Shown in pieces: positions 34,961 to 63,985 of a stretch of 64,000 bases of DNA. Positions within the stretch are counted from its first letter, which is position 1, and each line of letters opens with the position of its first letter. Position numbers and translations under genes: made by a program. The stretch is from Naegleria gruberi (taxonomy: Eukaryota): NCBI GenBank assembly GCA_000004985.1, contig GG738874.1. One strand, 5' to 3'. Below the pieces are notes generated by a model. It saw only the letters and a program-made list of their open reading frames with translations. It was not told the DNA's origin and did not search any database.

Positions 34961-36091
34961 ATGAGATCATCAAGAAAATTACTCAAACTTGCTCCATTAT
35001 TTGCTGTAGCTTCGTATGGAGTTATATCAATGAAGGATACAGATCTTGTCTCTAAATTTTTTAATTATGATCGTAAACAGTTCTATCATCAATTCATGCC
35101 AAATCATCACTTTCTAGTTCAGGCCGAGGAAGAAACTTTGAAACCACAATCTGGTGTGGTGACTGGTAACTTCCCACAAATGGCAATTATCAGCATTAAA
35201 TTGAAAGATTACAAGAATTATGAAAAGGTTTTGAAAGCAGTTTCTCTTGTTCCTTCAATTGTTGAGGAATTGACAGGAGATAAACAAGTCGATGCAGAAG
35301 ATGAATTTGCATTGCCACCTGTCATGATTAATGTTGCACTGAGTACTAGATTTTGGAACTTTTTAAATTCAAAAGATGGAGCTACCTTCAAAAAGCCAGA
35401 AGGTTACACTAAGGATTATGAAACTAAAACAGGAGAGTTTGGTTCAATGCCATATAAGGAAACTGAAATTGTCTTGCATGTAAAGGCAGAGAATACCTCA
35501 ATTTGTTATCAAGCCATTGATCAATTTTTGTCCAATCTCCCAAAGGATGCACTTGAATCAGTGAATGAACATTACGGATTCCAATATCAAGATTCAAGAG
35601 ATTTGAGCAAATTCATTGATGGTATCAATAATCCATCCGGAAATGATGATCGTTCAGTAGCTGCTCTCAATTCACAAAAGGGAAGTTTCCTCATTCATCA
35701 AAAGTGGGTCCATCACCACCATTTAGATTCCAAATTTTCAGTTAAGGATCAGGAGGCATTCGTTGGAAGGGAGAGAGTTTCTGGAGCCGAATTACCAACT
35801 CTACCACCCTCTTCACACGTTGCCAGAATGAGACGACCAAATGGTGATATCATTCCAATTGTGAGACAGAGTTTCCCTTATGGTACAGTGAGTGGAGAAC
35901 ATGGATTATTGTTCATTGCTTACAGTAATAACATTGAAAAGTATGAAACTCTATTGGATGCCATGGTTGGTAAAGTGCACGGCAAACATAATGATGCCAT
36001 CATGAAATTCTCCAATTGCCACTACTCTAATTATTATTACGTTCCATCCATCAATGAATTGAATTCTATCAAGACAAAATTTAATAAATAA
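34961..36091 (+). CDS. DyP-type (dye-decolorising) haem peroxidase with about 50-aa N-terminal hydrophobic/basic extension
   Basis: Single exon, ATG in an ACAACAATG context. It carries the DyP hallmark GxxDG-type motif KFIDGINNPSGND, a proximal His region SSHVARMRRPNGD, and the C-terminal LLFIAYSNNIEKYETLLDAMVG. The N-terminus MRSSRKLLKLAPLFAVASYGVIS looks like a signal or transit peptide. Confidence 0.8.
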   Translation: MRSSRKLLKLAPLFAVASYGVISMKDTDLVSKFFNYDRKQFYHQFMPNHHFLVQAEEETLKPQSGVVTGNFPQMAIISIKLKDYKNYEKVLKAVSLVPSIVEELTGDKQVDAEDEFALPPVMINVALSTRFWNFLNSKDGATFKKPEGYTKDYETKTGEFGSMPYKETEIVLHVKAENTSICYQAIDQFLSNLPKDALESVNEHYGFQYQDSRDLSKFIDGINNPSGNDDRSVAALNSQKGSFLIHQKWVHHHHLDSKFSVKDQEAFVGRERVSGAELPTLPPSSHVARMRRPNGDIIPIVRQSFPYGTVSGEHGLLFIAYSNNIEKYETLLDAMVGKVHGKHNDAIMKFSNCHYSNYYYVPSINELNSIKTKFNK

Positions 36092-48402: not shown

Positions 48403-51400
48403 ATGCCACACCCCAAAGCAATGTTCAAAAAAAGAACACACACAACGTTTCTCTCTATAGTGTATGCAAAAATGATTAAGGCTAGAAGGAGTAACTTTTC
48501 ACTTTTAATTGGGGTTGTCTTGGTGTGCATGATTGCATTCTTGAGCATGTATGCACATGCCGGTAAGAGCTCATCAGCACCACCACGAACTGCTGCTCCG
48601 TCCGTGGCTAGAGCTCAACTACCTCCACAGCCAGTTTCAAGAGCACCTCCGATGGCACAACCAATTTCAAGACAGGCAACTCCACAACCTGTATCAAAAC
48701 CAACTCCAGTTTCTAAACCAGCTGCTGCTCAACCTATTGTTGCCAACGTTAATGAAAAGAAATCTTTCCCAAAGAAAGGAGATCCATCTTTTGTTGGACC
48801 TGTTCAACCAAAGAAACAATCATCAACACCAGCTACTTCTAAACCAGAAGTTCCAAAGGCAGGCGCCAAGAACAAGCCTGTCGTGGATATCAAGAAATCT
48901 AATGATGTTATAGTAGCAAATGTTAATGATAAGAAATCTGGTAGAAAGAAGGAAGAAACAAAACCTGAAAAGACTGTTGAACACAAGAAAGACAGTACAT
49001 CTAGCAAGATTGAAAAGAAATCTGAAGAATCAAAGCCAGACACCAAGGTGGAACACAAATTTGATGAAAAGAAACCTGATATCAAGTCAAAGACTGAAAA
49101 AAAGAAAGAAGAAAAGACATCTTCTCATAAGGATGATGTAAAGAATTCTGAAAAGAAGGCCCAGAAATCTGAACTTAAGGAAGATAAGAAATCTGAAAAT
49201 TATAATAAGATGACCAATGAGAAAAACAAGATGAATGATAAGAAATCTGATGTAAAGAAATCTTCAAAGAATTTAGAAGAAAATAAGAAGGAATCCGTTG
49301 AGCATAACAAGGCTAATAAGGATTCTGAAACTTCCAAACCAGATTCCAAAATGCAAGTCAAATCATCAGAAAAATCAAATTTAAAAAAGGATGAAAAAAA
49401 ATCCGAACATAAGGAGGATAAGAAATCTGATAAGAAATTTGATAAGAAAAAGAAATCTGATAACAAGAAGGATGAAAAGAAATCTGATGACAAGAAATCT
49501 ACCGAAATCAAATCTGATAAGACTGATCATAAGAAATCCAATAAGGATGATAAGAAATCAGAAAAGAAGGGTTCAACCGATAAGAAGAAGACTGATGGTG
49601 AAAAGTCAGATAAGAAGACTAAGGATGTAAAGTCTGATAATCCTGATTCTAAGAATACTAGTAAATCAAAGAAGTCTGTTGATAAGAAGAAGACTAACAC
49701 AAAGAAGGATAAGAAGACCAATAAGGAAGAAAAGAAATCTGTAGAAAAGAATGAAAAGAAAATAGGAAAGAAGTCTACAAATACAGCCACAAAGAAGGAT
49801 ACTACCAAGTCCACTAAGAAAACTGATAAGAAATCCTCTGAAAATAAGAAGACAAGTGGATCCAAAAAGGCCGAGCCTAAAAAGAAAACCAATTCAACCA
49901 AACCTGGAAAGAAATCTAGCACAAAGAAGCTCTCTAGTACGAAATCAAAATCTATTGGAAAGAAATCTGATATTAAGGAGGGTAACAAGAATGCTAAACC
50001 AAAGACCACTGATACCGGTAAGAAATCAGCTTCTGATAAGAAATCCAAGTCAGACAAGAAATCTGAAAAGAGCCCAACAAGTGTAAAAAAGGATAAGAAG
50101 AGTACCAAATCAAAAACTGAAAAAAAGTCAACAACTAGAATGAAATCCAAGGATGTTAAAAAGCCAGGAATGACACCAAAATCATTTGATAACATGTTTG
50201 CTCAACAAGCTAAAAAGTTGTCTCAACCAACAAGTCCAGTCAAACCAAACACAAAGTCTGACAAGAAGTCCAACAAGCCAAAGAAATCAAACACTGGTAA
50301 GAGGACCTATTCCAAGAAGAATGATAAGTCAAAAACTAGTTCCAAGAAACCTGGAAAGAAATCTAGCACAAAGAACCTAGCTGGTAAGAAATCAAAATCT
50401 ATTGAAAACAAATCTGATGTTAAATCCACAAAATCAGGAAAGAAGTCTTCAAAAAATACTGGCAAAAAATCTGGAAAGAAATCTACCAACAAGTCTGGAA
50501 AGAAATCAACTAAAAAGAGTAAGAACACTACTAAGTCTGGAAAGATATCCAATACTGGAAAGTCTGGAAAGAAATCAAAGAATGGTAATACGAAATCAGA
50601 TAAGAAGACCAAGAAATCAGAAACTGGTAAGAAATCAAAAAATTCCAAAGGAAAGAAGGATAGTAAGAAATCAAAGAAATCTACCAAAAAATCAGTAACG
50701 TCAACTAAAACAACTAGTAAGAAATCTAACAAGTCTGGAAAGAAGGCTTCTAAGAATACTGGCAAGAAATCAGGAAAGAAATCCAATAAGCCTGGAAAGT
50801 CAAAGAAGATACCCAAGAAATTAGGTAAGAAGGGTTCTAAAAAGGCTAACCAACCAAGCAAATCCAGTAACAAGTCTGGAAAGACCTTAAAGAATGGTAA
50901 ACCAAAGAAATCCAATACTGGAAAGACATTAAAGAATGACACATCAAAGAAATCAACTAAAAAGGGCAAGAACGGTACTAAGTCTGGAAAGAAATCAAAA
51001 TCTGGTAAGAAGACTAAGAAATCAGAAACTGGAAAGAATTCTGGAAAGAAATCAAATACTGGAGAGAAAAACAACAATTCTTCTAAGAATAATAAGAAAA
51101 AGAACTTGAATGGAAAGAAGGACAAGTCCAAAAACAAATCAACTAATTTAAAGAATAATAAGAACACCAATAAGAAGAGTGCAAACAAATCAAGGAATAA
51201 CAAGAACATGACTGAACAAAAGGAAGAATCTGAATCATCTTTTGGCACACCAGATTCTGAGGAGAGAGAAACTCCATATTCTGAAGATGGACCAATAATA
51301 TTATTAAGAGATGATAACATCTTATCTAATTCTTACAAACAAAGAGGAATTGAAATTGAAGATGAACCAGTTAAAGTAGTTGAAAAGAATAGTATGAAGG

Positions 51401-52608
51401 TCAAGCAAGTCGATAGTGAAATTGAACTATCTAGTGATCAAGATGAAGAAAGGCCACTCCAAATTTCTAAGAGGCAAGTTGAAAAGTCAATTCAAAGAAA
51501 CGATTTTGAAGACAATGAGGAACCAAAGGTCTCTAAATCTAAACAAGACGCTGAAAAATCCGAAGTTGAAAAGACCATTCAAAGAAAAGAGAAACACCAA
51601 GTTGAAGATGAAGAAGAAGCCCCTCAAAAGAAGTCTGTAAAAGGAAAGCATGATAAGAAATCTGGAAAGAAATTGAAGAATGAAAGATCAAAGAAGTCTG
51701 GAAAGTCTGTTGCTAAGAAAGGCAACAGGTCTGGAAAGAAATCAAATAATTCCACAGGAAAGAATGGCAATAAGAAATCAAAGAAATCTGGAAAGAACAC
51801 CAAAACAACAAGTAAGAAGTACGGAAAGAAGCTCACTAAAAAGAATACCAAGAAATTAGGTAGGAAGGGTTCTAAGAAATCTGTAATTAAACCAAAGAAA
51901 TCCAATCTTTCTTATGGTAAGGATTCTGGAAAGAAATCTTCCAAACAATCCAGAAAAGTGGAATATGAAGATGTTGAATATCCAATTCAAAGAAACCAAA
52001 AAAAAAGAAAACAACAAGTTGATGAAAAACCTCCTCAAAAGAAGTCTAGAAATATTTCAAAGAGACAGCAGCAAGATGAAGAAAGATTTATTCTACAATA
52101 TGAAAAGAAATCTGGACACAGAAAGGTTAATAAGAAATCATCCAAGCAAGAATTCGAAGAAAACCGAGCTCCAAAGAGGCAATATGTTGAATTTGATGAA
52201 GAAGTTCCTCAAGAGAATTCCAAATCTGGAATGGATATCTTGACCTATAGAACAAATCCAATCAATATCAATAACCATCAACCTCAAAAAAGAATGATCA
52301 ATAGAATTACCCCTCAAACAGTATCTCAATTAAGACCAATCGAATCAAATGCCCCAGCTATTACTAATCCACAAATTTATCATCCATTTGTTAGACCAAA
52401 TAACTTTGTTACCACTGCTCCACCAGCTATTGCTCGACCAAATAACTTTACTCCTCAAACACAATCTCATGATGAAACTATGAATCTGCAAAATATTGGT
52501 ATCAATCTTGTCACCAACAATCCAACTCCTACAGCTCCAAATCATAATGTTAACAGAGCCAGAGTTGTACAAGCTTTGAGAAAATTGATTGCCTCTATGA
52601 AGAAATAA
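48403..52608 (+). CDS. giant Lys/Ser-rich low-complexity protein with N-terminal signal-anchor and conserved C-terminal module (family C/D, member C)
   Basis: Single 1401-codon ORF; in-frame ATGs at 48403 and 48472 (the latter with an AAAAATG context, MIKARRSNFSLLIGVVLVCMIAFLSMYAHAG). After a Pro/Ala/Gln-rich stretch come about 1000 aa of KKS/DKKS/GKKS repeats. It ends in a roughly 110-aa non-repetitive module (...INRITPQTVSQLRP...NLQNIGINLVTNNPTPTAPNHNVNRARVVQALRKLIASMKK) shared with the next gene. Confidence 0.6.
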   Translation: MPHPKAMFKKRTHTTFLSIVYAKMIKARRSNFSLLIGVVLVCMIAFLSMYAHAGKSSSAPPRTAAPSVARAQLPPQPVSRAPPMAQPISRQATPQPVSKPTPVSKPAAAQPIVANVNEKKSFPKKGDPSFVGPVQPKKQSSTPATSKPEVPKAGAKNKPVVDIKKSNDVIVANVNDKKSGRKKEETKPEKTVEHKKDSTSSKIEKKSEESKPDTKVEHKFDEKKPDIKSKTEKKKEEKTSSHKDDVKNSEKKAQKSELKEDKKSENYNKMTNEKNKMNDKKSDVKKSSKNLEENKKESVEHNKANKDSETSKPDSKMQVKSSEKSNLKKDEKKSEHKEDKKSDKKFDKKKKSDNKKDEKKSDDKKSTEIKSDKTDHKKSNKDDKKSEKKGSTDKKKTDGEKSDKKTKDVKSDNPDSKNTSKSKKSVDKKKTNTKKDKKTNKEEKKSVEKNEKKIGKKSTNTATKKDTTKSTKKTDKKSSENKKTSGSKKAEPKKKTNSTKPGKKSSTKKLSSTKSKSIGKKSDIKEGNKNAKPKTTDTGKKSASDKKSKSDKKSEKSPTSVKKDKKSTKSKTEKKSTTRMKSKDVKKPGMTPKSFDNMFAQQAKKLSQPTSPVKPNTKSDKKSNKPKKSNTGKRTYSKKNDKSKTSSKKPGKKSSTKNLAGKKSKSIENKSDVKSTKSGKKSSKNTGKKSGKKSTNKSGKKSTKKSKNTTKSGKISNTGKSGKKSKNGNTKSDKKTKKSETGKKSKNSKGKKDSKKSKKSTKKSVTSTKTTSKKSNKSGKKASKNTGKKSGKKSNKPGKSKKIPKKLGKKGSKKANQPSKSSNKSGKTLKNGKPKKSNTGKTLKNDTSKKSTKKGKNGTKSGKKSKSGKKTKKSETGKNSGKKSNTGEKNNNSSKNNKKKNLNGKKDKSKNKSTNLKNNKNTNKKSANKSRNNKNMTEQKEESESSFGTPDSEERETPYSEDGPIILLRDDNILSNSYKQRGIEIEDEPVKVVEKNSMKVKQVDSEIELSSDQDEERPLQISKRQVEKSIQRNDFEDNEEPKVSKSKQDAEKSEVEKTIQRKEKHQVEDEEEAPQKKSVKGKHDKKSGKKLKNERSKKSGKSVAKKGNRSGKKSNNSTGKNGNKKSKKSGKNTKTTSKKYGKKLTKKNTKKLGRKGSKKSVIKPKKSNLSYGKDSGKKSSKQSRKVEYEDVEYPIQRNQKKRKQQVDEKPPQKKSRNISKRQQQDEERFILQYEKKSGHRKVNKKSSKQEFEENRAPKRQYVEFDEEVPQENSKSGMDILTYRTNPININNHQPQKRMINRITPQTVSQLRPIESNAPAITNPQIYHPFVRPNNFVTTAPPAIARPNNFTPQTQSHDETMNLQNIGINLVTNNPTPTAPNHNVNRARVVQALRKLIASMKK

Positions 52609-52714: not shown

Positions 52715-54805
52715 ACGTTCATTACACATTCACTTGAATGGCTATCGTATCTTAAACCAGTAGCACAACCAACTGTTGAAAAGAAATCTGTTGCCAAGAC
52801 TGACAAGAGTCAAGTCAAATCAGCAACTGAAAAGAAGAAGGCCGATGTAACACCAAAAGAAATTGCTAAACCAACAAAGAAGCCAGTTGATACCAAGCCA
52901 GCTAAACCTGTTGTCGATACCAAGAAATCTGATGCCAAGAAGTCAACTGATAAATCTGGTAAGCCAAAGACTGGTGCCAAGAAAACTACTGGTAAGAACA
53001 CTGATGCCAAGAAGTCAACTAATAAGAAGACTGATGCAAAGACAGGAAAGTCTGCTACTGCCAAGAAGACTCCAGCTATGGCAACCAAGTCTGTTCAAAA
53101 TAAGACTATTGCCAAGAAATCTGATGCCAAGAAGTCAACTGATAAAACTGGAAAGCCAAAGACTGCTACCAAGAAGACTGCCAAGAAAACCATTGATAAG
53201 GCAAAGTCTGGTGTAAAGACTAATGCCAAGAAGACTGGTTTGAAGGGAAAGTCAACAAAGAAAGATGTCACCAAGTCAACTAAAAAGTCTGACAAGAAGC
53301 CATCTGCCAAGAAGGATAAGTCTGCCAAGAAGTCATCTGATAAGACTGTAAAATCAAAGAAATCATCTGAAAAGAAAACCGGTAAAAAATCCAAGAAAAC
53401 TGGTGTAAAGAAGACTGATAAGAAGGGAAAGAAGGATAAAAAGCCAACTAAAAAGACTCATAAGAAAACCAAGTTAAGTGCATTGACTAGAGCTAGAGGC
53501 CACGTCTTTAAGAAAAAGAAGAAGAATTTGACAACTGAAAACCCATCCCAATCATCCCAATCTCCAATTCTTGAACATATTCCAATGGAATCAGATGGTT
53601 TGTCAAGAAGACAAAGATATGAACGTTCACTTAAAGAAAAATCAAAGAAATCCGAAAACAATGAAGAGAATGTCCAAAAGGAATCTGAAGTTATTGCAAC
53701 TCCTAGTTCTGAAGACATTTCCTCACCAATTAATTCTGAAAGAGTAGCTACTTCTGAAGATTCACCGGTCCAAAACAATTCCGAAGAAAGATCTTCCTCA
53801 AACGATAACATCTCATCCAATTCTGTTAATCAAAGAGGACTTGAAATTGAAGATGATGTTAAAGTTGAAAAGAAACAACGTGTTGGAGTCAAGCAAGTTG
53901 ATGAAGAAATTGAATCTAAGGAAGAAATCAAGTCTGACGAAAAGAAATCTGCTAAGGTTTATGGAGAGTCTGATAAGAAACCTAGAAAGGATGAATCTGA
54001 AGAAGAATTGGAAGAGCCAACCTCTGTCCAAAAGAAATCCAAGAAGTCAACTAAGAAATCAAGAAATCTTACGAAGAAGACTGGTAAGAAGGGTGAGAAA
54101 TCAACCAAAAAGACTGCTCCAAAGAAGAATAGCAATAAGACAGGTAAGCAGACAGGTAAGAAGGGTAAGAAATCTGGAAACAAATCAAGAAAGGTTGTTA
54201 AGAAATCTGGAAACAAGTCAAACAAGAATGAAAAGAAACCAACCAAGAAGACTGATAAGAAGGGTAAGAAATCTGGAAACAAGTCTAACAAGGGTGCTAA
54301 GAGATCCACTAAGAAATCAGGAAAGGGTGAAAAGAAATCCATGAATACTCAAAATAGAAGAATCAATAGAATTGCTCCTCAATCAGTAACTCAATTCAAA
54401 CCAATGGAAATTGTTGATACTCCAGCTATCAGTAAGGCACAAATTTCCCAACCAGTTATCACTCAACAAGATGTCGAACCAACTACTGGTACTCAAAGAC
54501 AACTTCCAACTGGTGCAATGAATGTTCAAAACATTGACATTAATCTCATCACAAACAATCCAACTCCTACTGCTCCAGATAGTCCATCTCCATCCGAGAT
54601 TGCATTGGTCAGAAGATTTTTGGCTAATAGAAGAAGATTGGAAAAGAAGCAAGCTCCACAACAACCAAAGGAAGAACCAATGAATGTTTCTAATGTTGTC
54701 ACTGTTGGTATGCCTCAACCTGCTCAAAAGCCAACCAAACAAAATATTGATAGAGCTAAAGTTGCTGCTGCTTTGAGAAATTTGATTGCTTCTGTTAATA
54801 AATGA
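52715..54805 (+). CDS. Lys-rich low-complexity protein, member D of the C/D family; 5' end and start codon undefined (possible partial tandem duplicate)
   Basis: The frame is open from 52715 (after TGA) to TGA 54803-54805. There is no ATG before 53078 and no signal-peptide exon in the 107 bp separating it from gene C. The body is AKKSDAKKSTDKTGKPKT repeats. The C-terminal module (...INRIAPQSVTQFKP...NVQNIDINLITNNPTPTAPD...RAKVAAALRNLIASVNK) is homologous to that of gene C. Confidence 0.45.
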   Translation, partial: TFITHSLEWLSYLKPVAQPTVEKKSVAKTDKSQVKSATEKKKADVTPKEIAKPTKKPVDTKPAKPVVDTKKSDAKKSTDKSGKPKTGAKKTTGKNTDAKKSTNKKTDAKTGKSATAKKTPAMATKSVQNKTIAKKSDAKKSTDKTGKPKTATKKTAKKTIDKAKSGVKTNAKKTGLKGKSTKKDVTKSTKKSDKKPSAKKDKSAKKSSDKTVKSKKSSEKKTGKKSKKTGVKKTDKKGKKDKKPTKKTHKKTKLSALTRARGHVFKKKKKNLTTENPSQSSQSPILEHIPMESDGLSRRQRYERSLKEKSKKSENNEENVQKESEVIATPSSEDISSPINSERVATSEDSPVQNNSEERSSSNDNISSNSVNQRGLEIEDDVKVEKKQRVGVKQVDEEIESKEEIKSDEKKSAKVYGESDKKPRKDESEEELEEPTSVQKKSKKSTKKSRNLTKKTGKKGEKSTKKTAPKKNSNKTGKQTGKKGKKSGNKSRKVVKKSGNKSNKNEKKPTKKTDKKGKKSGNKSNKGAKRSTKKSGKGEKKSMNTQNRRINRIAPQSVTQFKPMEIVDTPAISKAQISQPVITQQDVEPTTGTQRQLPTGAMNVQNIDINLITNNPTPTAPDSPSPSEIALVRRFLANRRRLEKKQAPQQPKEEPMNVSNVVTVGMPQPAQKPTKQNIDRAKVAAALRNLIASVNK

Positions 54806-54810
54806 ATTCT

Positions 54811-55974
54811 TTAAAATTGACAATTTATCATTAAATCTGTTAGTTTCTGAGCTATCATTGATTGATAGCATCTTTTCAATGTTGTCTTCTCGAATAAACA
54901 ATTAGAAATATAGTGGTTATTTTTCTCGTTACTATTCACTACATATTTAACCACTTGTGAAATGTCAAAATCAGATATCGACTTGATAATGTGATATTCT
55001 GACACATTTCCATTACCTGTTCGTAAATAGTTAGATATAATTGTATTGACAACATCCCTCTCGTGATAATCGTTTACAATTTGTTCAAGTTCTGGCATTA
55101 ATTGAGCTTCAAAAGGTCTTTCAAATTTGATATAATTCCTCAACTTTTTCATCATTAAATCTGGTTTGGTAAAGAGAAGAATTATTCTCGTATTCGAATG
55201 ATTTCCAATCAATTCCTTGTAGAGTTTCAAACTTTCGTCCATTCTATTAACCTTCTCATCTCCATAACATGTTTGATTAAATTCTGAAAGAGAAACTACA
55301 TAAATCAAAACTGAAACTTGATTTTCCAAACAATATCTCCACTTTCGTCTTTCATGAATTTTTCCACCTGCTGTCACAAATGTCAATCTATTCTTATTAA
55401 AAATAACACTATAATCAATTATTCCAGAAGATCCTCCCTTAATATAAATATCTGGAATAAACCTCTCTCGATTCTTAATTTTTGACACAAAAATGTCAAC
55501 ATTCTCAAATAAATTCAATGTATCCTGATTAGTTCTATAAATCTTTCTAAATCTATCATCATTCCACAATGCAACAAGTGCATGATCATCAAAATTTCCA
55601 TTCGGTACCTTTTCATTAATAATAAACTCAACTGTCCTATCACTCGATGACGATGACGATGAGTACAAAATTTGTTGAATGATAATTCGTGAAATTGTAT
55701 TCGTATCGACGTGATAGAAAGAGTCGGAAGTTTTATCGATGGAAGTAAAATGTTCCTTCTTTCTATTTTCATATCGAATCATTTCACAGATGGTTGTCTT
55801 TCCACTTGATGTGTTTCCAAGGAGGACGAATCTCTTTTCTTCCACGTCGTCATTAGCAAGATTATTCGAATGGTTATTCGAAGGAGAAGACGAAATAAAC
55901 GTGTTTTGAATTGCGTTACTGTTAACGACGTTGGCGTGTTGCTGTTGTTGAAGTGTTGAGAGCTTCCCACCCAT
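54811..55974 (-). CDS. divergent heterotrimeric G-protein alpha-subunit-like protein with non-canonical catalytic residues
   Basis: ATG in an AAAAAAAAATG context. MGGKLST is an N-myristoylation consensus. The P-loop is LLGNTSSGKTT. The block PDIYIKGGSSGIIDYSVIFNKNRLTFVTAGGKIHERRKWRYCLENQVSVLIYVVSLSEF...VNRMDESLKLYKELI...ILLFTKPD is colinear with G-alpha switch I / switch II / NKxD regions (DVLRTRVKTTGI...DVGGQRSERKKWIHCF...NRMHESMKLF...ILFLNKKD). The switch-II Gln is Lys, the switch-I Arg is absent, and NKKD is TKPD. 387 aa. Confidence 0.75.
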   Translation of the reverse strand: MGGKLSTLQQQQHANVVNSNAIQNTFISSSPSNNHSNNLANDDVEEKRFVLLGNTSSGKTTICEMIRYENRKKEHFTSIDKTSDSFYHVDTNTISRIIIQQILYSSSSSSSDRTVEFIINEKVPNGNFDDHALVALWNDDRFRKIYRTNQDTLNLFENVDIFVSKIKNRERFIPDIYIKGGSSGIIDYSVIFNKNRLTFVTAGGKIHERRKWRYCLENQVSVLIYVVSLSEFNQTCYGDEKVNRMDESLKLYKELIGNHSNTRIILLFTKPDLMMKKLRNYIKFERPFEAQLMPELEQIVNDYHERDVVNTIISNYLRTGNGNVSEYHIIKSISDFDISQVVKYVVNSNEKNNHYISNCLFEKTTLKRCYQSMIAQKLTDLMINCQF

Positions 55975-56141
55975 TTTTTTTTATCTGATTCTTTTCGAAA
56001 GGTTTCACTAGTAATGCTCGAATTGGAAGGAAGAGTCCAAAGATGGTCTTCCAGCTGCTGTTGGAATCTGTAAATCTTTAGCTTAATATTTATTACTGTT
56101 CGATACCAGCTTGGCTAGACAGTAAATTTTATTATTAAAAA

Positions 56142-56486
56142 ATGGCGGGAAAAGCTGTGAACGAATGTTTCTTCCCCATTTCGTTCACTATTGAGCAAAA
56201 GGAACTGAAAAACTCGTCGACACCAGATGTGGTGGTGGCAAAAAAGCGCAGAAAAAAACGACACAAATATATATCAGGTGCATATCAAAGGTTGTTTGAT
56301 TTTGAAACCAACTTGTTCACTCGCTTTTTATCAATTGTCTTACCAAATGATGAAGATTTGAAAATAGTCCAGTGGTCATATATCCTTAGTGTCATTGTAT
56401 TCCATCTAGTCTTCCAATTTATTTTACCGTGTTACCTCGCTTGCAAAGTGGAAGAAAAAGATATTTTGCAAGGGAAGCTATTGTGA
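56142..56486 (+). CDS. small hypothetical protein (polybasic KKRRKKRHK tract plus C-terminal hydrophobic segment)
   Basis: 114-codon ORF with ATG in a TTAAAAAATGGCG context. No homology is recognisable. It could alternatively be a 5' exon or an upstream ORF of the adjacent 7-TM gene. Confidence 0.3.
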   Translation: MAGKAVNECFFPISFTIEQKELKNSSTPDVVVAKKRRKKRHKYISGAYQRLFDFETNLFTRFLSIVLPNDEDLKIVQWSYILSVIVFHLVFQFILPCYLACKVEEKDILQGKLL

Positions 56487-56728
56487 TTTTGTGTGGCTTG
56501 GTCAATTATTCACTAGAAGAAAAAAAGGTGATTGAAAGGGAAGAAAATATTTTCACGCTTTTTCTGTCCACGTGTGTTCATCATTAGAGAAGAGAACACT
56601 TTCAACATCACGTTCATCAATTTATAGAATATACTTCTTCCTTTTTGTGTGAGTATTCAGAAGTGTAACAACAAAAGAAAAAGAAGAATTTTAAACAATT
56701 TTGCCTACTACACTACTTCATCATCATT

Positions 56729-58698
56729 ATGTCCATCGGAAAGTTAATACAGTCATCAGCCTTGTTAAGTCAAGTTGCTGGACAGGCTAATCAATTGTTT
56801 GATTCAATACTTTCCTATTTATTAATTAATTTAGGTTCTTCATCATCTTTATCAACAACAACTATAGCACAACAAGATACAAACTTGTTGCACAATATCA
56901 TCAATAACAACAACAATATTATTGGATCATCCTTTGGAACAACAACCAATGATATAAATAATAGGACTGAAGAAATAATTTTGGTGAGAGGAGTAACACT
57001 TACAATGGATATTACCTTCTTGTTGGTTCCTTTAATAATCTCGATTGCCATTCCGATCCTCTATGAAATGCTTGTTGTTCGACAATTCCTGGATAAGATT
57101 AAAAAGAAGTTTAAAAGAAAGGCAAGAACACGTTCAACCTATTACGATAAGTTTGGTCAATATCAAGATAGTATTGAGGCATTTGCACTTCAAGATATTG
57201 AAAAGGAGGAGAATGCTAGAAGCACATTGTTTTGGAAATTGGTTTGCTTTTGTGGATGGAGAAATTTCAAAAACTTTTTCTTTACTACTCCATTAGGTGC
57301 AGATAATTCATTGGCAGCAATCAATGAGAATGGAAGCTTTGTAATGTATCATTCAACACCCTTTCAATTATTGGATAGAATGTGTTCCAGTTGCTGCACA
57401 ACTGTCAGTACATCATCCAGTGAAGATCTCGCACCACTCTTTCCATCAGAAAACAATGTGAAAATTCGATCTGTTACATCCAAAAGCGTTCATCAATATA
57501 ACATTTCATGCTGGATTTCTAGTTCAATACTCTTGCTAATACGTATTGGTAATTTCGTATTGGCAGTAGTGACAGCTGTCTACTTGGGAAAGGATGAAAT
57601 ATTCAAGAAGGGCAATCACAATCCTTGGTTCGAATATACCAAATATCTTACCAACAATACTTTCAATCTCTTCCTTGTCTATTCATCACTCGTGCTATTC
57701 TACCATATTATTCTAATGATGACTGCAGGTGTTCTTGTGATCAAGAAGAGAAAACCAACAAGTGGTAACACAGCTACAGTTACTTTTCCATATCATGACA
57801 TTATGCCAAGAAATTTGGAAAAAGTTTTAGAGGTAATTGGTAACATGTTGTGGTTCTTATCAGAGATGAACCTTGTAACTTCTGCTCTTGTTTCTATTGG
57901 GTATGTTATTATTGCTATTGTATAATATTTACCATTAACCTGAAAATTATTTTGAATAATTATTATAATTATTAATGAACTTGCTGAATGATTATCTTAA
58001 GTTTTTGGACAATCATCATACCAACAGGAAATTTCCCAACGGATAGAATTAACTTTATCATTATATCATCACATGGATTGACATTTATTGGAAGTTTTAT
58101 AGAGGCCTTCATGTCAGACTTTTATTTTAAATTCTGGCATGTCTTCATCATTGGCCTTTATTCACCAATTTATCTTCTCTATGTTATTGGATTGAAAGAA
58201 GGTGGATACATTACATCATTCCCATACGGAAATCTTCTCGATTATGACAAGGGAGATTTAGCTTTGGCTGGACATTTCACATTCATCATTGGCATTTATT
58301 TACTCTTCGCCTTGTTCTGGCTCGTCTTGACAGTTTTTAAAAAGTTGATGGTCATCAAGTTTTGTGCCAGTTATGCCTTCCCTTCAACACTTGGACATCG
58401 TTCTTCTATTCCTCATAGTGCATCATCAGGATCATTGGAAAGAAGAGCCAGTTCGACCCCATACTATCAATCCACTTTTAAAGTTGGTTCTCCCGATAGA
58501 ACAATTTCACCAACTCTTCTCCAACAACATGCTCGTTCCATCAGTTTATCGAGTAGTGGTTATGGTGATGAAGAGGAGGAACAATTTACATCACTCCCAG
58601 CCAATTCAACCCTACAAACAACACCTACTCCATCCTCTACAGCTCAGCATCACAAGAGAACCTTTTCTTATGGCAGTACAAGCCATAGCCAGCAATAA
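56729..58698 (+). CDS. seven-transmembrane-helix membrane protein, unknown family; 2 exons 56729..57900 and 58002..58698
   Basis: Exon 1 ends in phase 2 (...SIG) before GTATGT at 57901. The 101-nt intron ends CTTAAG at 58001; the join gives ...ALVSIG|GFWTIIIPTG. The roughly 622-aa product has an Asn-rich N-terminus. TM1 is about residues 95-117; a roughly 150-aa loop follows; then come six further hydrophobic helices. The C-terminal roughly 110 aa are S/T/P-rich. Confidence 0.6.
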
Positions 58699-59302: not shown

Positions 59303-60889
59303 ATGTCAAGCGATAACACTAATGGTGGAACAACCTCAAGTGGTCCAGTTCTCTCCCAATCGGCAACTGATGTCTCATCTCCAACCGAAATTAAAGCCAA
59401 AAAGAAGGTTGTCATTAATGCTGAACCAACCCACGGTCCAATGTCAGTAGCTTCCAACACTACAAAAACCTCTGCCTCTGCTAAAGGAGCTCTCAAAGTC
59501 AATACATGTTGTGGTGTTGTTGAACTGACACCTATGAAATTAGCCTGTTTGATTGGTATGGCTATTACTGTCGTTGCCTTTGTTGCTTTGGGTGTTATTT
59601 CAATTACAAGCTTTGTTTATTCGAGCAGTAAGAAAATTGACCTTTTAATTACCTATGCAGATATCAGATATTACAGATCACAAGCTATGGCTGCTGTCAA
59701 GATGGCTGCTTATTCTAATGTATGTTTTATAATTATTTGATCAAACTGAACTGTTATTTCCACAAATTAACAATGTTGTCAACCTTTTAACAATGATGAC
59801 AACTAACATTAATTGATAACCAATAATTTAATGATGACAATTCAATAGGATTTTAATCAATACTATGATATCTACACTTCCAACAATAACAATTTAACAA
59901 ACCTCATCACGTCGATCAGAACAATTTTCCAAAATGATGCCACAGCCAATGCCCTCTTCACCAAGACCACTCTGACAGCAAAGAGTAAATTGGAAGGTTT
60001 TAATACCTATATCTTTGGTTTATTGAGACAAGGCAGTTATCAACAAGATGCTATTGACACAGTGAATAGTCAAGATTATAAGGACACTGATAATCTTTTC
60101 TATTCTGGTTTAACTTCCCTATTGAACTATGTCGTTACTTCGGAACAATCCAAAGACAATAGTGTCATTGCTTCCAACCTAGTTCAATTGGTAATTATTG
60201 TGATTGCCTTGGTGATTGTTTTGCCAGTTTTAGTATTCGTCTTTACTTATGCCATCAATCGTGACTCACTCTATTTGGAAAAGATTAGACGTGCCAATTC
60301 CATCATGTTATTGGATACAATTGCTGATAGTAATTTACGTTCTCTCTTCAAAGCTCATTGTGAAAAGGAAAAGTCAACTGAAAACTTTTTACTCTTAGAA
60401 AAGATTCACAACTATAAGGCCATGTGTGAAAGAGTCGACGATTTAAATATGAAATTATATGGAGATAGCACAATTTCTGATACTGCTAGTGCTTCTTCAA
60501 AGACTGATTCAACTGCCACTGCTGAGTCAGTTCCAAAACTCAAGAAGGAACAAGTTGCCAAGTATGAAAAAGAGCTCAATGAAATGGAAGGTAAAAAGTA
60601 TGAATTGGCCTTTGAAATTTACTCCTATCACTTGGATATCAACGGTGACATGGCTGCCAACGTAACCAAGAGCAAGTGTGACAAGGTTAAGGTTCAACTC
60701 GATAATTACAATACCAAACAAATCGAAAGTTTACCACTCGATTTATTCAAACAAATTGAAAAGGAAGTTTGTTTGACCATGATGGACACTCACAATAGAT
60801 TCAAATCATCCATTGCCTTCCAAAAGGAAATGAAAATTCACAAGCTTAACGTTGAAAAGATTAAGGCTAAGCATAAGAATAAGTTTTAA
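59303..60889 (+). CDS. membrane-anchored RGS domain protein, paralog 2; exons 59303..59719 and 59849..60889
   Basis: ATG at 59303. Exon 1 is MSSDNTNGG...CCGVVELTPMKLACLIGMAITVVAFVALGVISITSF (a TM anchor) and ends ...AYSN in phase 0 before GTATGT at 59720. The 129-nt intron ends CAATAG at 59848. Exon 2 has a second TM (LVQLVIIVIALVIVLPVLVFVFTY). The RGS core is FKAHCEKEKSTENFLLLEKIHNYKAM. About 485 aa, and colinear with the gene at 30545..32174. Confidence 0.8.
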
Positions 60890-61267: not shown

Positions 61268-63985
61268 TTATTGGGTATTGGCAAAGAGGTTGGAAACACT
61301 TCTATTGTTTGAGTAGAGGAGTGGATTGTTTTTCAAGTGTCTGTGATGTTTGTCATTGAGCAAATAGGTCTTGACAATTCCCTTTCCTTTCACATCAACT
61401 TCTCTCTCTTCAAAATCATATCCCAAATCGAAAACTCTTTCATAAGTTGATCTGGAGATTTGAATTCGTCCATTCTTTGAAGTGGATTCCATTCGAGAAG
61501 CAATATTGATGGTATCACCCCATAAATCGTAGGCAAACTTTTTCATTCCAATCACTCCAGCAACAACTGATCCTGTATTAATTCCAACTCGAATATTGAT
61601 TTGTTGAGGTGGTGGAGAGGATGATTTCACCTTTAATTCATTATCTGTTTCCTTAACAACCTCCTCTTGTTCATTATTATCAACAGATTTGAGTCGATTT
61701 GAATTGAAATCATTTATCACTCCAAATGTTTCAATTGCAAATTTTAAAACTCTTTCAGGATGATCACTTGTTGCAGCTCCAGGTAATCCACCCACTGCAA
61801 AATAGGCATCTCCAATTGTTTTGATCTTTTCCAAATCATATTTTTCAGTCAACATGTCAAATCCATTCACAATTGAGTTCAACATCATTACTAAATCAGT
61901 GGCTTGCATATTACTACTTATGGCTGTAAATCCAACCATATCTGAAAAGAAACAAGTGATATCATCCAATTTTTCAGCAATGAATGTATGTCCACTTTTC
62001 AATCTTGAAGCAACACTTGTTGGTAAGATATTCTTCAAGAGATTATCCGATTTTTGTTTCTCTTCACTCAATAAGGCATTTTGTTTCTTTTCAGAAGTTA
62101 AATCTTTCATTGTGACAATCAGAATATTTCTCATTGAACCTCTTTCACCTTGAATTTTGACAGTGAAGAGTGTTATTTTGCAAGGGAATTTGGTTTGATT
62201 TCTTCTGATACAATCTAATTCAACAATTTCACATTTTCCATTTCCTTCTTCACTCTCCTTGCTGGATTGTTTCAATTGAACATCTTCATCATCTTGATCT
62301 TCATCCTTCTTATCAGAATCTTTTCCACTCTTTTTGAAAATATACTTGATACACTTGTTGAGTTCATCTTGGTGTGTTGATTCAACCAATTGTGAAATTG
62401 AAGTTCCCAAAACATCAATTGGTTTCATTCCAAACATTTTCAATGCAGAATAATTCAAAAATTCAATTTCATGATTCTCATTACAAATAATACTTCCTTC
62501 AACACTTGAATTGAAAACATTCTTCAAATCAGAAATGGATGAAGCGGAAGATGATGATGATTTGTCCTTCTTTTTCATTCTTGTACTCAATGAATTGGTA
62601 TTGTTATAGAGGATAAAGTTTCTCAATGTTTCATTCCTCTCTAAAACTTCAACTGGAATATATTGTGACATTAATCGAAGTGAATGTAATTGACCACAAT
62701 AATTGGAGTAGATGATATACATCAGAAAGAAGAAAACCATACACCCAACAATTTCCACACCTGCAAAGCTTATTACTACATCATAAGAGGGAGCTGTAGA
62801 GGAGGAAATGAATGCCTTGATGAAAATTGTGAACTTGTTACTCAATGCTAGTGCCATTCTCATAGCAAGGTTATGCCGTATCCCTAAATCAGCTATTGGA
62901 AGAAGAATACCTTTTGGAGTTGCTGCCTTTTGAAGAGAATTTTGCTTTCTGGAGTCAGTCAATAATTGAGGAACCAGGGTCATGTAATCATTCAAAAGTG
63001 TTTCCAAACCGATGCAGTACATCATATTTGTTTCTATTGTAAGAGTCATATTATTTTCTTGCAAATAGTCAGAGCAATTAGATGAAACGCCATGATTAAT
63101 AAGTGAGTCAACACCTGGATACATTCCTAAAATTGGTCTGGTACCAACAGAGGCATCCCCATAAATTAATCTTGACCACATACTACTAAGAGTTGGTAAT
63201 CTATTTGTTGCTCTGTCAAAGAGTACATTGAAATTTGTAACAGTATTGAATAATCTTGGATCACCATATGTAACATTTCTTTTGAAATTAACTGCCAATG
63301 GAGAAATATTGTTTGAAATTTCACTTGCAACAAAGTAGGTCATTACTTCACCTGTGTTAAATGCGATTCTCTGTACAGATGTTGCAGCTTGAATACTTAA
63401 TCTTACATTGTTCATCACTCTACCAGCAGTTTGGGCATTGAAGTCGCTTTCATAATAGAACATGGCAATACTTGCACATGTAAATAAGGTAATCAGCGAA
63501 ATCAAAATAATTGTTGAAATGTTTGATTTCATTTTGGCAAGTGAGAAAGTATTGTCAGCATTATTGGCAGTATCAGTTGTTTTGTTGTTGAGAGAGTGAA
63601 ATATTTTTCCAATCACATCTTTGCTCAAATGTTTTTCATATATTTTCACAATTTTTGTCATATGACTCATTTCAAATATCATATAACTCAAATAAGCAAT
63701 ACTGATCAAAAAGAATGCAACTAGAACTGCACCTGAATAATACACCAAATTTTGAGTTGTTAGATCTACTGCATCTGTTGATCTATCAAGATAACGGGCG
63801 CAAAAAGTATCAAAAGCCAGTGAAGCAGTTTCTCTATTCGCAAACAGGAACATGAAATTGTAATTCTTCAATGGGTGAAAGTACAAATCAGTTGCTGCAA
63901 TATTTAGCAATAGAGTTTGATAGGACGGATCATAGTTATGGCTTGAAATATTTGTCAACAAGTTAATTGGAAAGGTGTCAATCAT
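61268..63985 (-). CDS. receptor-type class III adenylyl cyclase: 2-TM-flanked extracellular sensor domain + third TM + PAS domain + cyclase catalytic domain (N-terminus may extend beyond the window)
   Basis: A continuous 905-codon ORF reaches the window edge; the upstream 15 nt remain in frame with no stop. Hydrophobic helices lie at about residues 85-105, 155-177 and 400-425, bracketing a roughly 220-aa hydrophilic domain. A PAS-like segment follows (...EGSIICNENHEIEFLNYSALKMFGMKPIDVLGTSISQLV). The cyclase core has FSDMVGFTAISS (the metal Asp) and EKIKTIGDAYFAVGGLPG / FAYDLWGDTINIASRMES. The substrate-specifying Lys and Asp predict ATP as substrate. Confidence 0.85.
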   Translation of the reverse strand: MIDTFPINLLTNISSHNYDPSYQTLLLNIAATDLYFHPLKNYNFMFLFANRETASLAFDTFCARYLDRSTDAVDLTTQNLVYYSGAVLVAFFLISIAYLSYMIFEMSHMTKIVKIYEKHLSKDVIGKIFHSLNNKTTDTANNADNTFSLAKMKSNISTIILISLITLFTCASIAMFYYESDFNAQTAGRVMNNVRLSIQAATSVQRIAFNTGEVMTYFVASEISNNISPLAVNFKRNVTYGDPRLFNTVTNFNVLFDRATNRLPTLSSMWSRLIYGDASVGTRPILGMYPGVDSLINHGVSSNCSDYLQENNMTLTIETNMMYCIGLETLLNDYMTLVPQLLTDSRKQNSLQKAATPKGILLPIADLGIRHNLAMRMALALSNKFTIFIKAFISSSTAPSYDVVISFAGVEIVGCMVFFFLMYIIYSNYCGQLHSLRLMSQYIPVEVLERNETLRNFILYNNTNSLSTRMKKKDKSSSSSASSISDLKNVFNSSVEGSIICNENHEIEFLNYSALKMFGMKPIDVLGTSISQLVESTHQDELNKCIKYIFKKSGKDSDKKDEDQDDEDVQLKQSSKESEEGNGKCEIVELDCIRRNQTKFPCKITLFTVKIQGERGSMRNILIVTMKDLTSEKKQNALLSEEKQKSDNLLKNILPTSVASRLKSGHTFIAEKLDDITCFFSDMVGFTAISSNMQATDLVMMLNSIVNGFDMLTEKYDLEKIKTIGDAYFAVGGLPGAATSDHPERVLKFAIETFGVINDFNSNRLKSVDNNEQEEVVKETDNELKVKSSSPPPQQINIRVGINTGSVVAGVIGMKKFAYDLWGDTINIASRMESTSKNGRIQISRSTYERVFDLGYDFEEREVDVKGKGIVKTYLLNDKHHRHLKNNPLLYSNNRSVSNLFANTQ

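What the first reader, a model, noticed from the sequence alone, without database searches (positions are those of the whole stretch)
54811..55974. G-alpha-like protein with both GTP-hydrolysis residues substituted (switch-II Gln to Lys, switch-I Arg lost) and NKxD to TKPD
The gene is unmistakably a heterotrimeric G-alpha homolog. It has the myristoylation start MGGKLS, a P-loop, and colinear switch I/II segments including ..GG.(R/H)ERRKW and the NRM.ES(M/L)KL(F/Y) helix. In the alignment, DVGGQ becomes TAGGK, RTRVKTTGI becomes IKGGSSGI, and the guanine-specificity motif NKKD becomes TKPD. The canonical residues (Gln204, Arg178, Asn269 in Gi numbering) are required for GTP hydrolysis and guanine recognition. 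Such a protein may be constitutively GTP-bound, nucleotide-free, or have altered nucleotide specificity. That would make it a pseudo-GTPase or scaffold rather than a conventional switch.
Basis: partly seen in the sequence, partly recalled or inferred. Interest (0 to 1): 0.7.

Follow-up and report, generated by a model that had tools for sequence, protein, structure and literature searches.

The report
Catalytically stripped G-alpha-like protein of Naegleria
This is a real, selectively maintained Naegleria gene for a G-protein alpha-like protein that has lost the residues needed to hydrolyse GTP. It is one member of a whole Naegleria-specific clade with the same trait, and the existence of such divergent G-alphas in Naegleria is already noted in the literature.

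Summary
Window 54811-55974 (- strand) is one uninterrupted 387-aa ORF that matches Pfam G-alpha (150 bits). It carries MGGKLS, the P-loop GNTSSGKT, IKGGSSGI for R-x-x-TTGI, TAGGK for DVGGQ and TKPD for NKxD.

- P-loop Gly42 to Thr and Glu43 to Ser (Gi numbering)
- switch-II Asp200 to Thr
- G5 TCAT to KSIS
- no predicted alpha-N helix
- a 41-aa C-terminal extension after a shortened alpha5, in place of the usual receptor-coupling tail

The gene is not an artefact or a pseudogene. An independent metagenome contig is 99.4% identical (5 synonymous, 1 non-synonymous change). A relative that is 54-60% identical keeps every altered motif.

The window comes from a Naegleria close to N. gruberi. The protein belongs to a Naegleria clade (NJ bootstrap 98/100) defined by [ST]K[PVA]D (mostly FTKPD), YHIVNT and a [FY]ISPCL C-terminal tail. 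This clade has generally lost Gly42, Arg178 and Gln204. It keeps the P-loop Lys, the switch-I Ser/Thr, Gly203, Lys270 and Asp272.

Best reading: a myristoylated, nucleotide-binding, hydrolysis-deficient, non-cycling G-alpha-like adaptor. TKPD fits the general (N/T)KxD consensus and is not evidence that guanine binding was lost. A 2021 review already reports deviant catalytic motifs in Naegleria G-alphas. Interest is modest.

The parts
54811..55974 (-). Complete CDS (387 codons plus stop) of the G-alpha-like protein
   Evidence: ORF list. Pfam G-alpha at 150 bits. AF2 model with pTM 0.71 whose best PDB matches are G-alpha chains. An in-frame stop lies 3 codons upstream of the ATG.
55954..55974 (-). 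N-terminal MGGKLST, an N-myristoylation motif with no Cys3 for palmitoylation
   Evidence: Matches the PROSITE pattern G-{EDRKHPFYW}-x(2)-[STAGCN]-{P}. MGxKxS recurs across the clade.
55843..55953 (-). Q/N/S-rich low-complexity linker (residues 8-44) where canonical G-alphas have the alpha-N helix that binds G-beta
   Evidence: AF2 pLDDT is 34-44 and residues 1-39 are flagged as disordered. Only 25% of this segment is identical to P0002. Other clade members have only 10-25 residues here.
55792..55818 (-). P-loop GNTSSGKTT (residues 53-61). It fits GxxxxGK[ST], but Gi Gly42 (Ras Gly12) is Thr and Glu43 is Ser.
   Evidence: Alignments. LLGNTSSGKTTICEMI is identical in P0002.
55465..55764 (-). 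All-helical insert domain (about residues 71-170), including a poly-Ser run
   Evidence: AF2 places helices at 91-108, 110-122, 130-137, 140-148 and 159-167 between alpha1 and switch I. Foldseek aligns about 340 columns to full-length G-alpha chains.
55420..55443 (-). Switch I IKGGSSGI (178-185). The catalytic Arg178 position is Lys179, and the Mg/gamma-phosphate Thr181 position is Ser.
   Evidence: HMMER alignment to Gq. MAFFT alignments. Identical in P0002.
55339..55374 (-). Switch II TAGGKIHERRKW (201-212). Asp200 is Thr, catalytic Gln204 is Lys205, and Gly203 and ERRKW are retained.
   Evidence: TAGGK is also found in P0002 and in N. gruberi P0043.
55159..55170 (-). G4 motif TKPD (269-272) in place of NKxD. 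Lys and Asp are retained.
   Evidence: [ST]K[PVA]D, mostly FTKPD, is the clade signature. It fits the general (N/T)KxD consensus.
54973..54984 (-). G5 loop KSIS (331-334) in place of TCAT. The Ala326 position is Ile (or Ser if the alignment is shifted by one).
   Evidence: The AF2 secondary structure puts beta6 at 324-330 and alpha5 at 335-346. The Pfam alignment ends at residue 347. MAFFT table.
54814..54936 (-). C-terminal extension (347-387) after a short alpha5. It contains YISNCL and a terminal helix, and it replaces the canonical receptor-coupling tail.
   Evidence: It lies outside the Pfam match. The clade-conserved motifs [FY]ISPCL and L[TS]D[IV]xI are seen. AF2 predicts helix 363-382 at low to moderate confidence.

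Best explanation
The gene encodes a functional, N-myristoylated, membrane-tethered G-alpha-like protein. It belongs to a Naegleria-specific clade that has discarded the GTP-hydrolysis machinery (Gi numbering: Gly42, Glu43, Arg178, Gln204) but kept the residues that hold a guanine nucleotide. These are the P-loop Lys and Thr, the switch-I Ser, Gly203, and Lys270 and Asp272 of a (N/T)KxD motif. It most likely binds GTP with negligible intrinsic turnover. Binding may be weak or fast-exchanging, because Asp200 and the G5 Ala are also changed. It would therefore act as a non-cycling, effectively always-on adaptor rather than a timed switch. Its conserved switch II/alpha3 face (ERRKWRYCLEN ... NRMDESLKLY) would be the partner-binding surface. 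It lacks a predicted alpha-N helix, and a clade-specific C-terminal module replaces the receptor-coupling tail. It is therefore probably not driven by a GPCR/G-beta-gamma cycle in the canonical way. Shown here: homology, fold, motif states, clade membership and purifying selection. Inferred: nucleotide binding, lack of hydrolysis, independence from receptor and G-beta-gamma.
For: Homology and fold: Pfam G-alpha at 150 bits. AF2 model with pTM 0.71 whose top PDB matches are Gs, Gq, Gt and Gi alpha chains at E about 1e-17.
Motif states.
Purifying selection: 5 synonymous against 1 non-synonymous difference versus contig L001. Against L002, pN is 0.25 and pS is 0.74 (saturated), giving dN/dS of about 0.1.
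The altered G motifs are islands of conservation between the window protein and P0002. Identity is 73% in the P-loop region, 70% in switch I, 81% in switch II and 79% in beta4-alpha3, against 42% in the helical domain and 25% in the N-terminus. This argues that the nucleotide pocket and the switch face are still used.
Clade pattern: Lys270 and Asp272 are kept in 17/17 members. Ser/Thr at position 181 is kept in about 16/17. The P-loop Lys is kept in 10/12. In contrast, Gly42 survives in 1 member, Arg178 in 1 and Gln204 in 1. Hydrolysis residues were released from constraint and binding residues were not.
The clade is supported at 98/100 NJ bootstrap.
AF2 predicts residues 1-39 as disordered and places the extension after alpha5.
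Against: No biochemical or expression data exist. Asp200 to Thr removes a Mg2+-water ligand. The G5 Ala is replaced by a bulkier residue; from general knowledge, Gi A326S and Ras A146T are fast-exchange, low-affinity mutants. Nucleotide affinity may therefore be low enough that the protein is empty in vivo. Some clade members have lost the P-loop Lys (P0038) or the whole P-loop (P0241), which shows that the clade tolerates complete loss of binding. Loss of the Gln does not by itself prove loss of hydrolysis; Rap and the HAS-GTPases (hydrophobic residue at the catalytic-Gln position) are precedents from general knowledge. The absence of alpha-N rests on a prediction. Model coordinates could not be inspected.
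Confidence: 0.5

Rival explanations
1. Nucleotide-free pseudo-GTPase scaffold. The pocket no longer holds nucleotide at cellular concentrations, and the protein signals purely through protein-protein contacts, as proposed for plant XLG2.
For: Substitutions accumulate at D200 (Thr), the G5 Ala (Ile or Ser), G42 and E43. Clade members P0241 (no P-loop) and P0038 (P-loop Lys to Thr) show that the lineage drifts towards non-binding. Precedent: XLGs have degenerate motifs, very low GTPgammaS binding and nucleotide-independent function (PMC8584482).
Against: In this protein and its 54-60% identical relative, GxxxxGKT, the switch-I Ser-Ser-Gly, Gly203, and Lys270 and Asp272 are all intact. They lie in the most conserved segments. 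That is hard to explain if the pocket is unused.
Confidence: 0.27
2. Still a cycling GTPase with non-canonical catalysis. Lys205 and/or Lys179, or residues supplied in trans by a dedicated GAP (for example one of the >100 Naegleria RGS-domain proteins), replace Gln204 and Arg178.
For: TAGGK is conserved in the window protein, P0002 and N. gruberi P0043. Lys at the Arg178 position is shared by the window protein, P0002 and P0033. This hints at a selected role for the lysines. The Naegleria RGS family is very large (PMC9283941), and two RGS-domain ORFs lie in this window. Precedents from general knowledge: Rap/RapGAP and the HAS-GTPases.
Against: Across the clade the Gln204 position is K, R, S, D, T, V, Y or M, and the Arg178 position is K, S, H, Y, P, M, G or N. 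This is the pattern of a relaxed site rather than a new catalytic residue. Thr at the Ras-Gly12 position normally blocks GAP-assisted catalysis (general knowledge). The window+P0002+P0043 grouping has only 3/100 bootstrap support, so TAGGK may be convergent or unresolved.
Confidence: 0.15
3. A decaying pseudogene, or an artefact of gene modelling (an unrecognised intron) or of alignment.
For: No orthologue was found among annotated N. gruberi proteins. The only hits were a 108-aa fragment model at 62-66% identity, more distant paralogues and unnamed metagenome proteins. There is no expression evidence.
Against: The ORF is an intact 387 codons and is colinear with the whole Pfam profile. dN/dS is about 0.05-0.1. 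The same motifs occur in an independent contig and in a diverged relative. A confident G-alpha fold is predicted.
Confidence: 0.03

Closest known systems
Canonical heterotrimeric G-alpha subunits (Pfam PF00503), for example Gq, Gs, Gi and Naegleria fowleri Galpha7 (PDB 6NE6)
   Same: Ras-like domain plus helical insert. MGxxxS lipidation start. GxxxxGK[ST] P-loop. The ERRKW switch-II core and the NRMxES alpha3 motif. Best sequence and fold matches.
   Different: Lacks Gly42, Glu43, Arg178, Asp200, Gln204, Asn269 and the TCAT G5 motif. No alpha-N helix is predicted. The C-terminal receptor-coupling tail is replaced by a 41-aa extension.
Uncharacterised Naegleria G-alpha-like paralogues: N. gruberi XP_002677043 (D2VG73), XP_002678655 (D2VBI2), XP_002671918 (D2VVW3); N. 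lovaniensis XP_044550044, XP_044549842
   Same: Same clade (NJ bootstrap 98/100). They share [ST]K[PVA]D (mostly FTKPD), a YHI[VI]-type beta6/G5 and the [FY]IS[PN]CL C-terminal extension. The catalytic Gly42, Arg and Gln are generally lost. D2VG73 also has TAGGK.
   Different: Only 22-40% identical. The window protein has KSIS rather than NT[TI]S at G5, Lys at both catalytic positions and a longer low-complexity N-terminus. Its only close relatives are unnamed metagenome proteins and a 108-aa N. gruberi fragment model.
Plant extra-large G proteins (XLG1-3)
   Same: G-alpha-derived proteins with degenerate nucleotide and catalytic motifs. They are thought to work independently of a GTPase cycle (PMC8584482).
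   Different: XLGs carry a long N-terminal Cys-rich/NLS domain and have lost whole G motifs. This protein is G-alpha-sized and myristoylated, keeps G1, G3-Gly and the G4 Lys/Asp, and has a C-terminal rather than an N-terminal addition. The origins are independent (the Naegleria-specific clade is shown).
Naturally GTPase-deficient small GTPases (Rnd, RhoH and similar) and HAS-GTPases (from general knowledge; see also PMC13236570, listed but not read)
   Same: Substitutions at the Gly12- and Gln61-equivalent positions with nucleotide binding retained. This gives constitutively GTP-bound proteins that are regulated by other means.
   Different: They belong to different GTPase families. They have no helical domain and no built-in Arg finger to lose.

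Membership tests
G-alpha family (Pfam PF00503) | Sequence match above the curated Pfam threshold, colinear over the domain | tested here: met
   150 bits against a 48.8 cut-off. Residues 35-347 align with profile positions 7-331 of 333.
G-alpha family (Pfam PF00503) | Ras-like GTPase domain with an inserted all-helical domain | tested here: met
   AF2 model with pTM 0.71, with helices between alpha1 and switch I. Foldseek top hits are full-length G-alpha chains with target-normalised TM-scores of 0.6-0.7.
G-alpha family (Pfam PF00503) | N-terminal lipidation motif (MGxxxS) | tested here: met
   MGGKLST fits the myristoylation pattern. The modification itself was not tested.
Canonical (cycling) G-alpha | Catalytic switch-I Arg (Gi R178) and switch-II Gln (Gi Q204) | tested here: not met
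   Both positions are Lys (K179, K205) in three independent alignments.
Canonical (cycling) G-alpha | P-loop GAGESGKS with Gly42 and Glu43; DxxGQ with Asp200 | tested here: not met
   GNTSSGKT (Gly42 to Thr, Glu43 to Ser) and TAGGK (Asp200 to Thr).
Canonical (cycling) G-alpha | G4 NKxD and G5 TCAT guanine-binding motifs | tested here: inconclusive
   TKPD fits the wider (N/T)KxD consensus and keeps Lys and Asp. G5 is KSIS, with the Ala replaced.
Canonical (cycling) G-alpha | Amphipathic alpha-N helix and switch II that bind G-beta-gamma; C-terminal tail that docks into the GPCR | tested here: inconclusive
   AF2 predicts residues 1-39 as disordered low-complexity sequence, with a 41-aa extension after alpha5. 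The switch-II core ERRKW..C.E is conserved. Binding itself cannot be tested with these tools.
Naegleria-specific divergent G-alpha-like clade (unnamed) | Shared derived motifs: [ST]K[PVA]D (mostly FTKPD) at G4, YHI[VI]xx at beta6/G5, and a C-terminal [FY]IS[PN]CL ... L[TS]D[IV]xI extension; monophyly | tested here: met
   The window protein has LFTKPDL, EYHIIKS, YISNCL and LTDLMI. NJ bootstrap is 98/100 for the clade. Members are named as N. gruberi and N. lovaniensis proteins.
Pseudo-GTPase (no hydrolysis and/or no nucleotide binding) | Absence of GTPase activity and/or nucleotide binding, shown biochemically | not testable with these tools
   Only the sequence prerequisites (loss of catalytic residues) are shown.
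Plant XLG family | Long N-terminal Cys-rich/NLS domain fused to a G-alpha-like domain; plant lineage | tested here: not met
   The N-terminus is a 44-residue low-complexity linker with no additional Pfam domain. The organism is a Naegleria.

The most novel reading that the evidence does not exclude
The [ST]K[PVA]D/ISPCL clade could be a distinct, so far undescribed class of G-alpha-derived signalling proteins. They would be GTP-loaded but non-hydrolysing, myristoylated membrane adaptors. Their new C-terminal module would replace receptor coupling. The conserved Thr201/Lys205 pair (TAGGK) might hold the gamma-phosphate in a Mg-poor, permanently 'on' pocket. Alternatively, a dedicated trans-acting GAP might switch them off. 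Either way this would be a second independent route, besides the plant XLGs, by which eukaryotes turned G-alpha into a non-cycling device.
Probability: 0.2. Interest if true: 0.55.

Novelty: new member of a known kind. Interest (0 to 1): 0.33.

Why it matters
Naegleria has one of the largest G-alpha repertoires known, reported as 44 in N. gruberi. Most of these proteins are uncharacterised. This analysis shows that a coherent subfamily has systematically shed its hydrolysis residues while keeping its nucleotide-binding residues. It has also swapped the receptor-coupling tail for a new conserved module. That gives a concrete, testable example of G-alpha evolving into a non-cycling signalling adaptor outside plants. 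It also flags which Naegleria 'G-alphas' should not be assumed to behave as switches, for example in drug-target work on N. fowleri. The general phenomenon is already noted in the literature, and this gene is one ordinary member of it.

Tried and rejected
1. Intron or misalignment artefact: rejected. The ORF is continuous and colinear with the Pfam profile, and three alignment methods agree.
2. Pseudogene: rejected on dN/dS and motif conservation.
3. Sequencing error: rejected, because an independent contig is 99.4% identical.
4. Tandem paralogues in the window: none found by tblastn.
5. Functional linkage to neighbours: two RGS-domain ORFs, a PAS-cyclase and a multi-pass membrane protein are nearby. 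These families are so large in Naegleria (PMC9283941) that proximity is not evidence.
6. The third homologue search used an alignment (A2) that included canonical G-alphas. It returned mostly canonical proteins, which was a poor use of the call.
7. The metagenome locus scan returned only canonical G-alphas, useful only as a control. A first attempt with the whole-clade alignment had no stretch conserved enough to search with.
8. N. gruberi loci for P0035 and P0004 are not on record, so orthology and synteny with strain NEG-M could not be tested.
9. The AFDB Foldseek library was unavailable.
10. The primary paper said to describe deviant Naegleria G-alphas (Anantharaman et al. 2011, Gene 475:63) is not held. 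I could not check whether this exact clade and its C-terminal module are described there.
11. The supplements of Bosch et al. 2022 contain no motif-level information on N. fowleri Galpha8-13.
12. Model coordinates are not exposed, so the packing of the C-terminal extension and of Lys205 could not be examined.
Full report
**1. What is in the sequence**

Window 54811-55974 on the minus strand is a single open reading frame of 387 codons. An in-frame stop lies three codons upstream of the ATG, so MGGKLS is the true N-terminus. The protein matches Pfam G-alpha (PF00503) at E=1.2e-43 and 150 bits, against a curated cut-off of 48.8. The match is colinear from profile position 7 to 331 of 333. The best solved relatives are Naegleria fowleri Galpha7 (6NE6, E=2e-16) and mammalian Gq, G11, Gs and Gi. 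An AlphaFold2 model built on a 58-sequence alignment has pLDDT 73.7 and pTM 0.71. It shows a confident Ras-like core and a helical insert. Its top Foldseek matches in the PDB are all G-alpha chains, with E about 1e-17, about 340 aligned columns and target-normalised TM-scores of 0.6-0.7.

**2. The motifs**

HMMER pairwise alignments and three MAFFT alignments give the same correspondences.

| Window motif | Residues | Canonical motif (Gi numbering) | Changes |
|---|---|---|---|
| GNTSSGKTT | 53-61 | GAGESGKST | GxxxxGK[ST] is intact; Gly42 (Ras Gly12 equivalent) is Thr; Glu43 is Ser |
| IKGGSSGI | 178-185 | TRVKTTGI | catalytic Arg178 is Lys, not deleted; Mg/gamma-phosphate Thr181 is Ser |
| TAGGKIHERRKW | 201-212 | DVGGQRSERKKW | Asp200 is Thr; Gln204 is Lys; Gly203 and the ERRKW core are kept |
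| TKPD | 269-272 | NKKD | Asn269 is Thr; Lys and Asp are kept |

MAFFT is ambiguous in the C-terminal part. The Pfam alignment ends at residue 347, and the AF2 secondary structure places beta6 at 324-330 and alpha5 at 335-346. Together these put the G5 loop at KSIS (331-334) in place of TCAT. The guanine-contacting Ala is therefore replaced, by Ile or by Ser depending on a one-residue shift.

The first 39 residues are Q/N/S-rich and are predicted to be disordered, so no alpha-N helix is predicted. Residues 347-387 form an extension after a short alpha5.

**3. The gene is real and under selection**

A metagenome contig assembled independently (L001, ENA ERZ929261) is 99.4% identical over the gene. 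It differs by five synonymous changes and one non-synonymous change, A290T. A partial protein from another metagenome (P0002, 252 aa) is 54-60% identical. It has pN 0.25 against a saturated pS of 0.74, which gives dN/dS of roughly 0.1. P0002 keeps LLGNTSSGKTTICEMI, IYIKGGSSGII and FVTAGGK..ER.KWRYCLEN exactly.

Segment by segment, identity to P0002 is as follows:

| Segment | Identity to P0002 |
|---|---|
| P-loop region | 73% |
| Switch I | 70% |
| Switch II | 81% |
| beta4-alpha3 | 79% |
| Helical domain | 42% |
| N-terminus | 25% |

The altered G motifs are the best-conserved parts of the protein. This rules out a sequencing error, a hidden intron and a decaying pseudogene.

**4. Organism and family**

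A chaperonin-like ORF in the window (14757-16250, minus strand) is 94% identical to a Naegleria gruberi protein, 60% to N. lovaniensis and 48% to Willaertia. The window therefore comes from a Naegleria close to, but not identical with, the sequenced N. gruberi strain.

An exhaustive HMMER scan of 1.84 billion representative proteins found 3209 G-alpha hits. Only four reached E<=1e-30, and a small group of relatives stood out. The named relatives are uncharacterised proteins of N. gruberi (XP_002678655, XP_002671918, XP_002677043) and N. lovaniensis (XP_044550044, XP_044549842).

The alignment shows shared derived characters:
- an MGxKxS start
- a very short or low-complexity N-terminus
- [ST]K[PVA]D, mostly FTKPD, at G4
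- YHIVNT-type sequence at beta6/G5
- a C-terminal extension with [FY]ISPCL and a terminal L[TS]D[IV]xI

A neighbour-joining tree with 100 bootstraps recovers this clade in 98 replicates and window+P0002 in 100. There is no second G-alpha gene in the window.

**5. The pattern across the clade**

The 14 canonical G-alphas aligned include the Naegleria-type P0041 and N. fowleri P0192. They all keep G42, R178, T181, D200, G203, Q204, N269, K270 and D272. The 10 metagenome loci that share the alpha3 word MDESLKL[YF] keep DVGGQ, NKxD and [TC]ATDT, or as much of them as each locus covers.

In the 17 clade sequences the picture is different:

| Position (Gi numbering) | State in the clade |
|---|---|
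| Gly42 | survives only in P0143 |
| Arg178 | survives only in P0073 |
| Gln204 | survives only in P0034; otherwise K, R, S, D, T, V, Y or M |
| Asn269 | survives in none |
| Lys270, Asp272 | present in all 17 |
| Ser/Thr at 181 | about 16 of 17 |
| Gly203 | about 14 of 16 |
| P-loop Lys | 10 of the 12 with N-termini; exceptions are P0038 (Lys to Thr) and P0241 (no P-loop) |

Two outlying relatives (P0113, P0156) still have the catalytic Arg and Gln but already carry T/S-K-x-D. The Asn-to-Thr change therefore probably came before the loss of catalysis and is independent of it.

The general G4 consensus is (N/T)KxD (PMC11594714). From general knowledge, dynamin and the SRP GTPases use TKxD. TKPD is therefore not evidence that guanine recognition has been lost.

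**6. Mechanism**

The selective loss of hydrolysis determinants, with phosphate, Mg and guanine ligands retained, points to a particular kind of protein. So does the strong conservation of the pocket and of the switch II/alpha3 face in this subclade. The protein probably still binds guanine nucleotide but has little or no intrinsic GTPase activity. It would be a non-cycling, effectively 'on' G-alpha-like adaptor, held at the membrane by myristate (confidence 0.5).

Nothing in the sequence suggests canonical receptor/G-beta-gamma cycling. No alpha-N helix is predicted, and the receptor-docking tail is replaced by a clade-specific module. The conserved ERRKW..C.E surface could nevertheless still bind G-beta, RGS domains or effectors.

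Rival readings:
- An empty, XLG2-like scaffold (0.27). This is favoured by the Asp200 and G5 changes and by clade members that have lost the P-loop.
- A GTPase with non-canonical or trans-supplied catalysis (0.15). This is suggested by TAGGK being shared by the window protein, P0002 and N. gruberi P0043. However, those three do not group in the tree (3/100), and the position is highly variable across the clade.
- A pseudogene or artefact (0.03).

None of the biochemical steps can be tested with these tools.

**7. Relation to what is known**

Bosch et al. 2022 (PMC9283941) catalogued 13 N. fowleri G-alphas and characterised six of them, all with working nucleotide cycles. They do not describe this clade.

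A 2021 review (PMC8584482) cites Anantharaman et al. 2011. It states that N. gruberi has about 44 G-alphas. [quoted passage not shown] The phenomenon is therefore already on record. The 2011 paper itself is not held, so I cannot say whether the clade signature and its C-terminal module were described there.

The closest functional analogy is the plant XLG family, but XLGs have a different architecture and an independent origin.

I classify the finding as a new member of a known kind. The gene itself is absent from annotated proteomes. Only unnamed metagenome proteins and a 108-aa N. gruberi fragment model at 62-66% identity resemble it closely.

**8. Verdict**

- Observation: confirmed.
- Interpretation: partly supported. 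The loss of catalysis is right. The NKxD argument is wrong, and the wider context was missed.
- Interest: 0.33. This is a well-supported, tidy example of a G-alpha that has probably stopped cycling, and it comes with a testable clade-level pattern. It is not surprising to a specialist, and it is not unique within its genome.

Noticed in passing
window 59990-60889 (+) and 30651-32174 (+): Two ORFs with RGS domains (Pfam PF00615, E=1.9e-5 and 7.6e-6). The first also has an N-terminal hydrophobic segment. They lie 4 kb and 23 kb from the G-alpha-like gene. Naegleria has >100 RGS proteins, so linkage is probably coincidental.
   Followed up: partly
window 61268-63985 (-): 905-aa multi-pass membrane protein with a PAS domain and an adenylate/guanylate cyclase catalytic domain (PF13426 and PF00211, E=1.6e-52). 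It is a member of the very large Naegleria cyclase family.
   Followed up: no
window 56142-58698 (+): Three consecutive same-strand ORFs (56142-56486, 56729-57925, 57988-58698) look like exons of one multi-pass membrane protein transcribed divergently from the G-alpha-like gene. The only family match is a weak, sub-threshold CASP-domain hit (E=8e-5). Whether it is a 7TM receptor was not examined.
   Followed up: partly
window 53078-54805 (+): 575-aa extremely Lys/Ser/Thr-rich low-complexity ORF with no Pfam match. It converges on the G-alpha-like gene, with only 5 bp between the two stop codons. The strong positive AT skew at 48-54 kb reflects this ORF and the 1401-aa ORF at 48403-52608.
   Followed up: no
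window 14757-16250 (-): TCP-1/cpn60-family ORF. It is 94% identical to an N. gruberi 'predicted protein', but only 60% to N. lovaniensis 'CCT-eta' and 40% or less to CCT-eta of other eukaryotes. This is unusually divergent for a CCT subunit. The relatives are 620-646 aa, so the N-terminal exon(s) lie outside this ORF.
   Followed up: partly
window 34961-36091 (+): ORF with a Dyp-type peroxidase C-terminal domain (PF20628, E=1.7e-30). From general knowledge this family is mostly bacterial and fungal, so it may be a horizontal acquisition in Naegleria.
   Followed up: no
L001 1-368 versus window 56006-56168: Upstream of the gene, the near-identical metagenome contig drops to 88% identity and carries about 200 bp that are absent from the window. 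This is an indel in the shared divergent promoter region.
   Followed up: no
P0043 (N. gruberi XP_002677043) versus window residues 201-205: The unusual switch-II pentapeptide TAGGK recurs in a paralogue that is only 25-35% identical and does not group with the window protein in the NJ tree (3/100). It is either an ancestral state lost elsewhere or a convergence. This is unresolved.
   Followed up: partly
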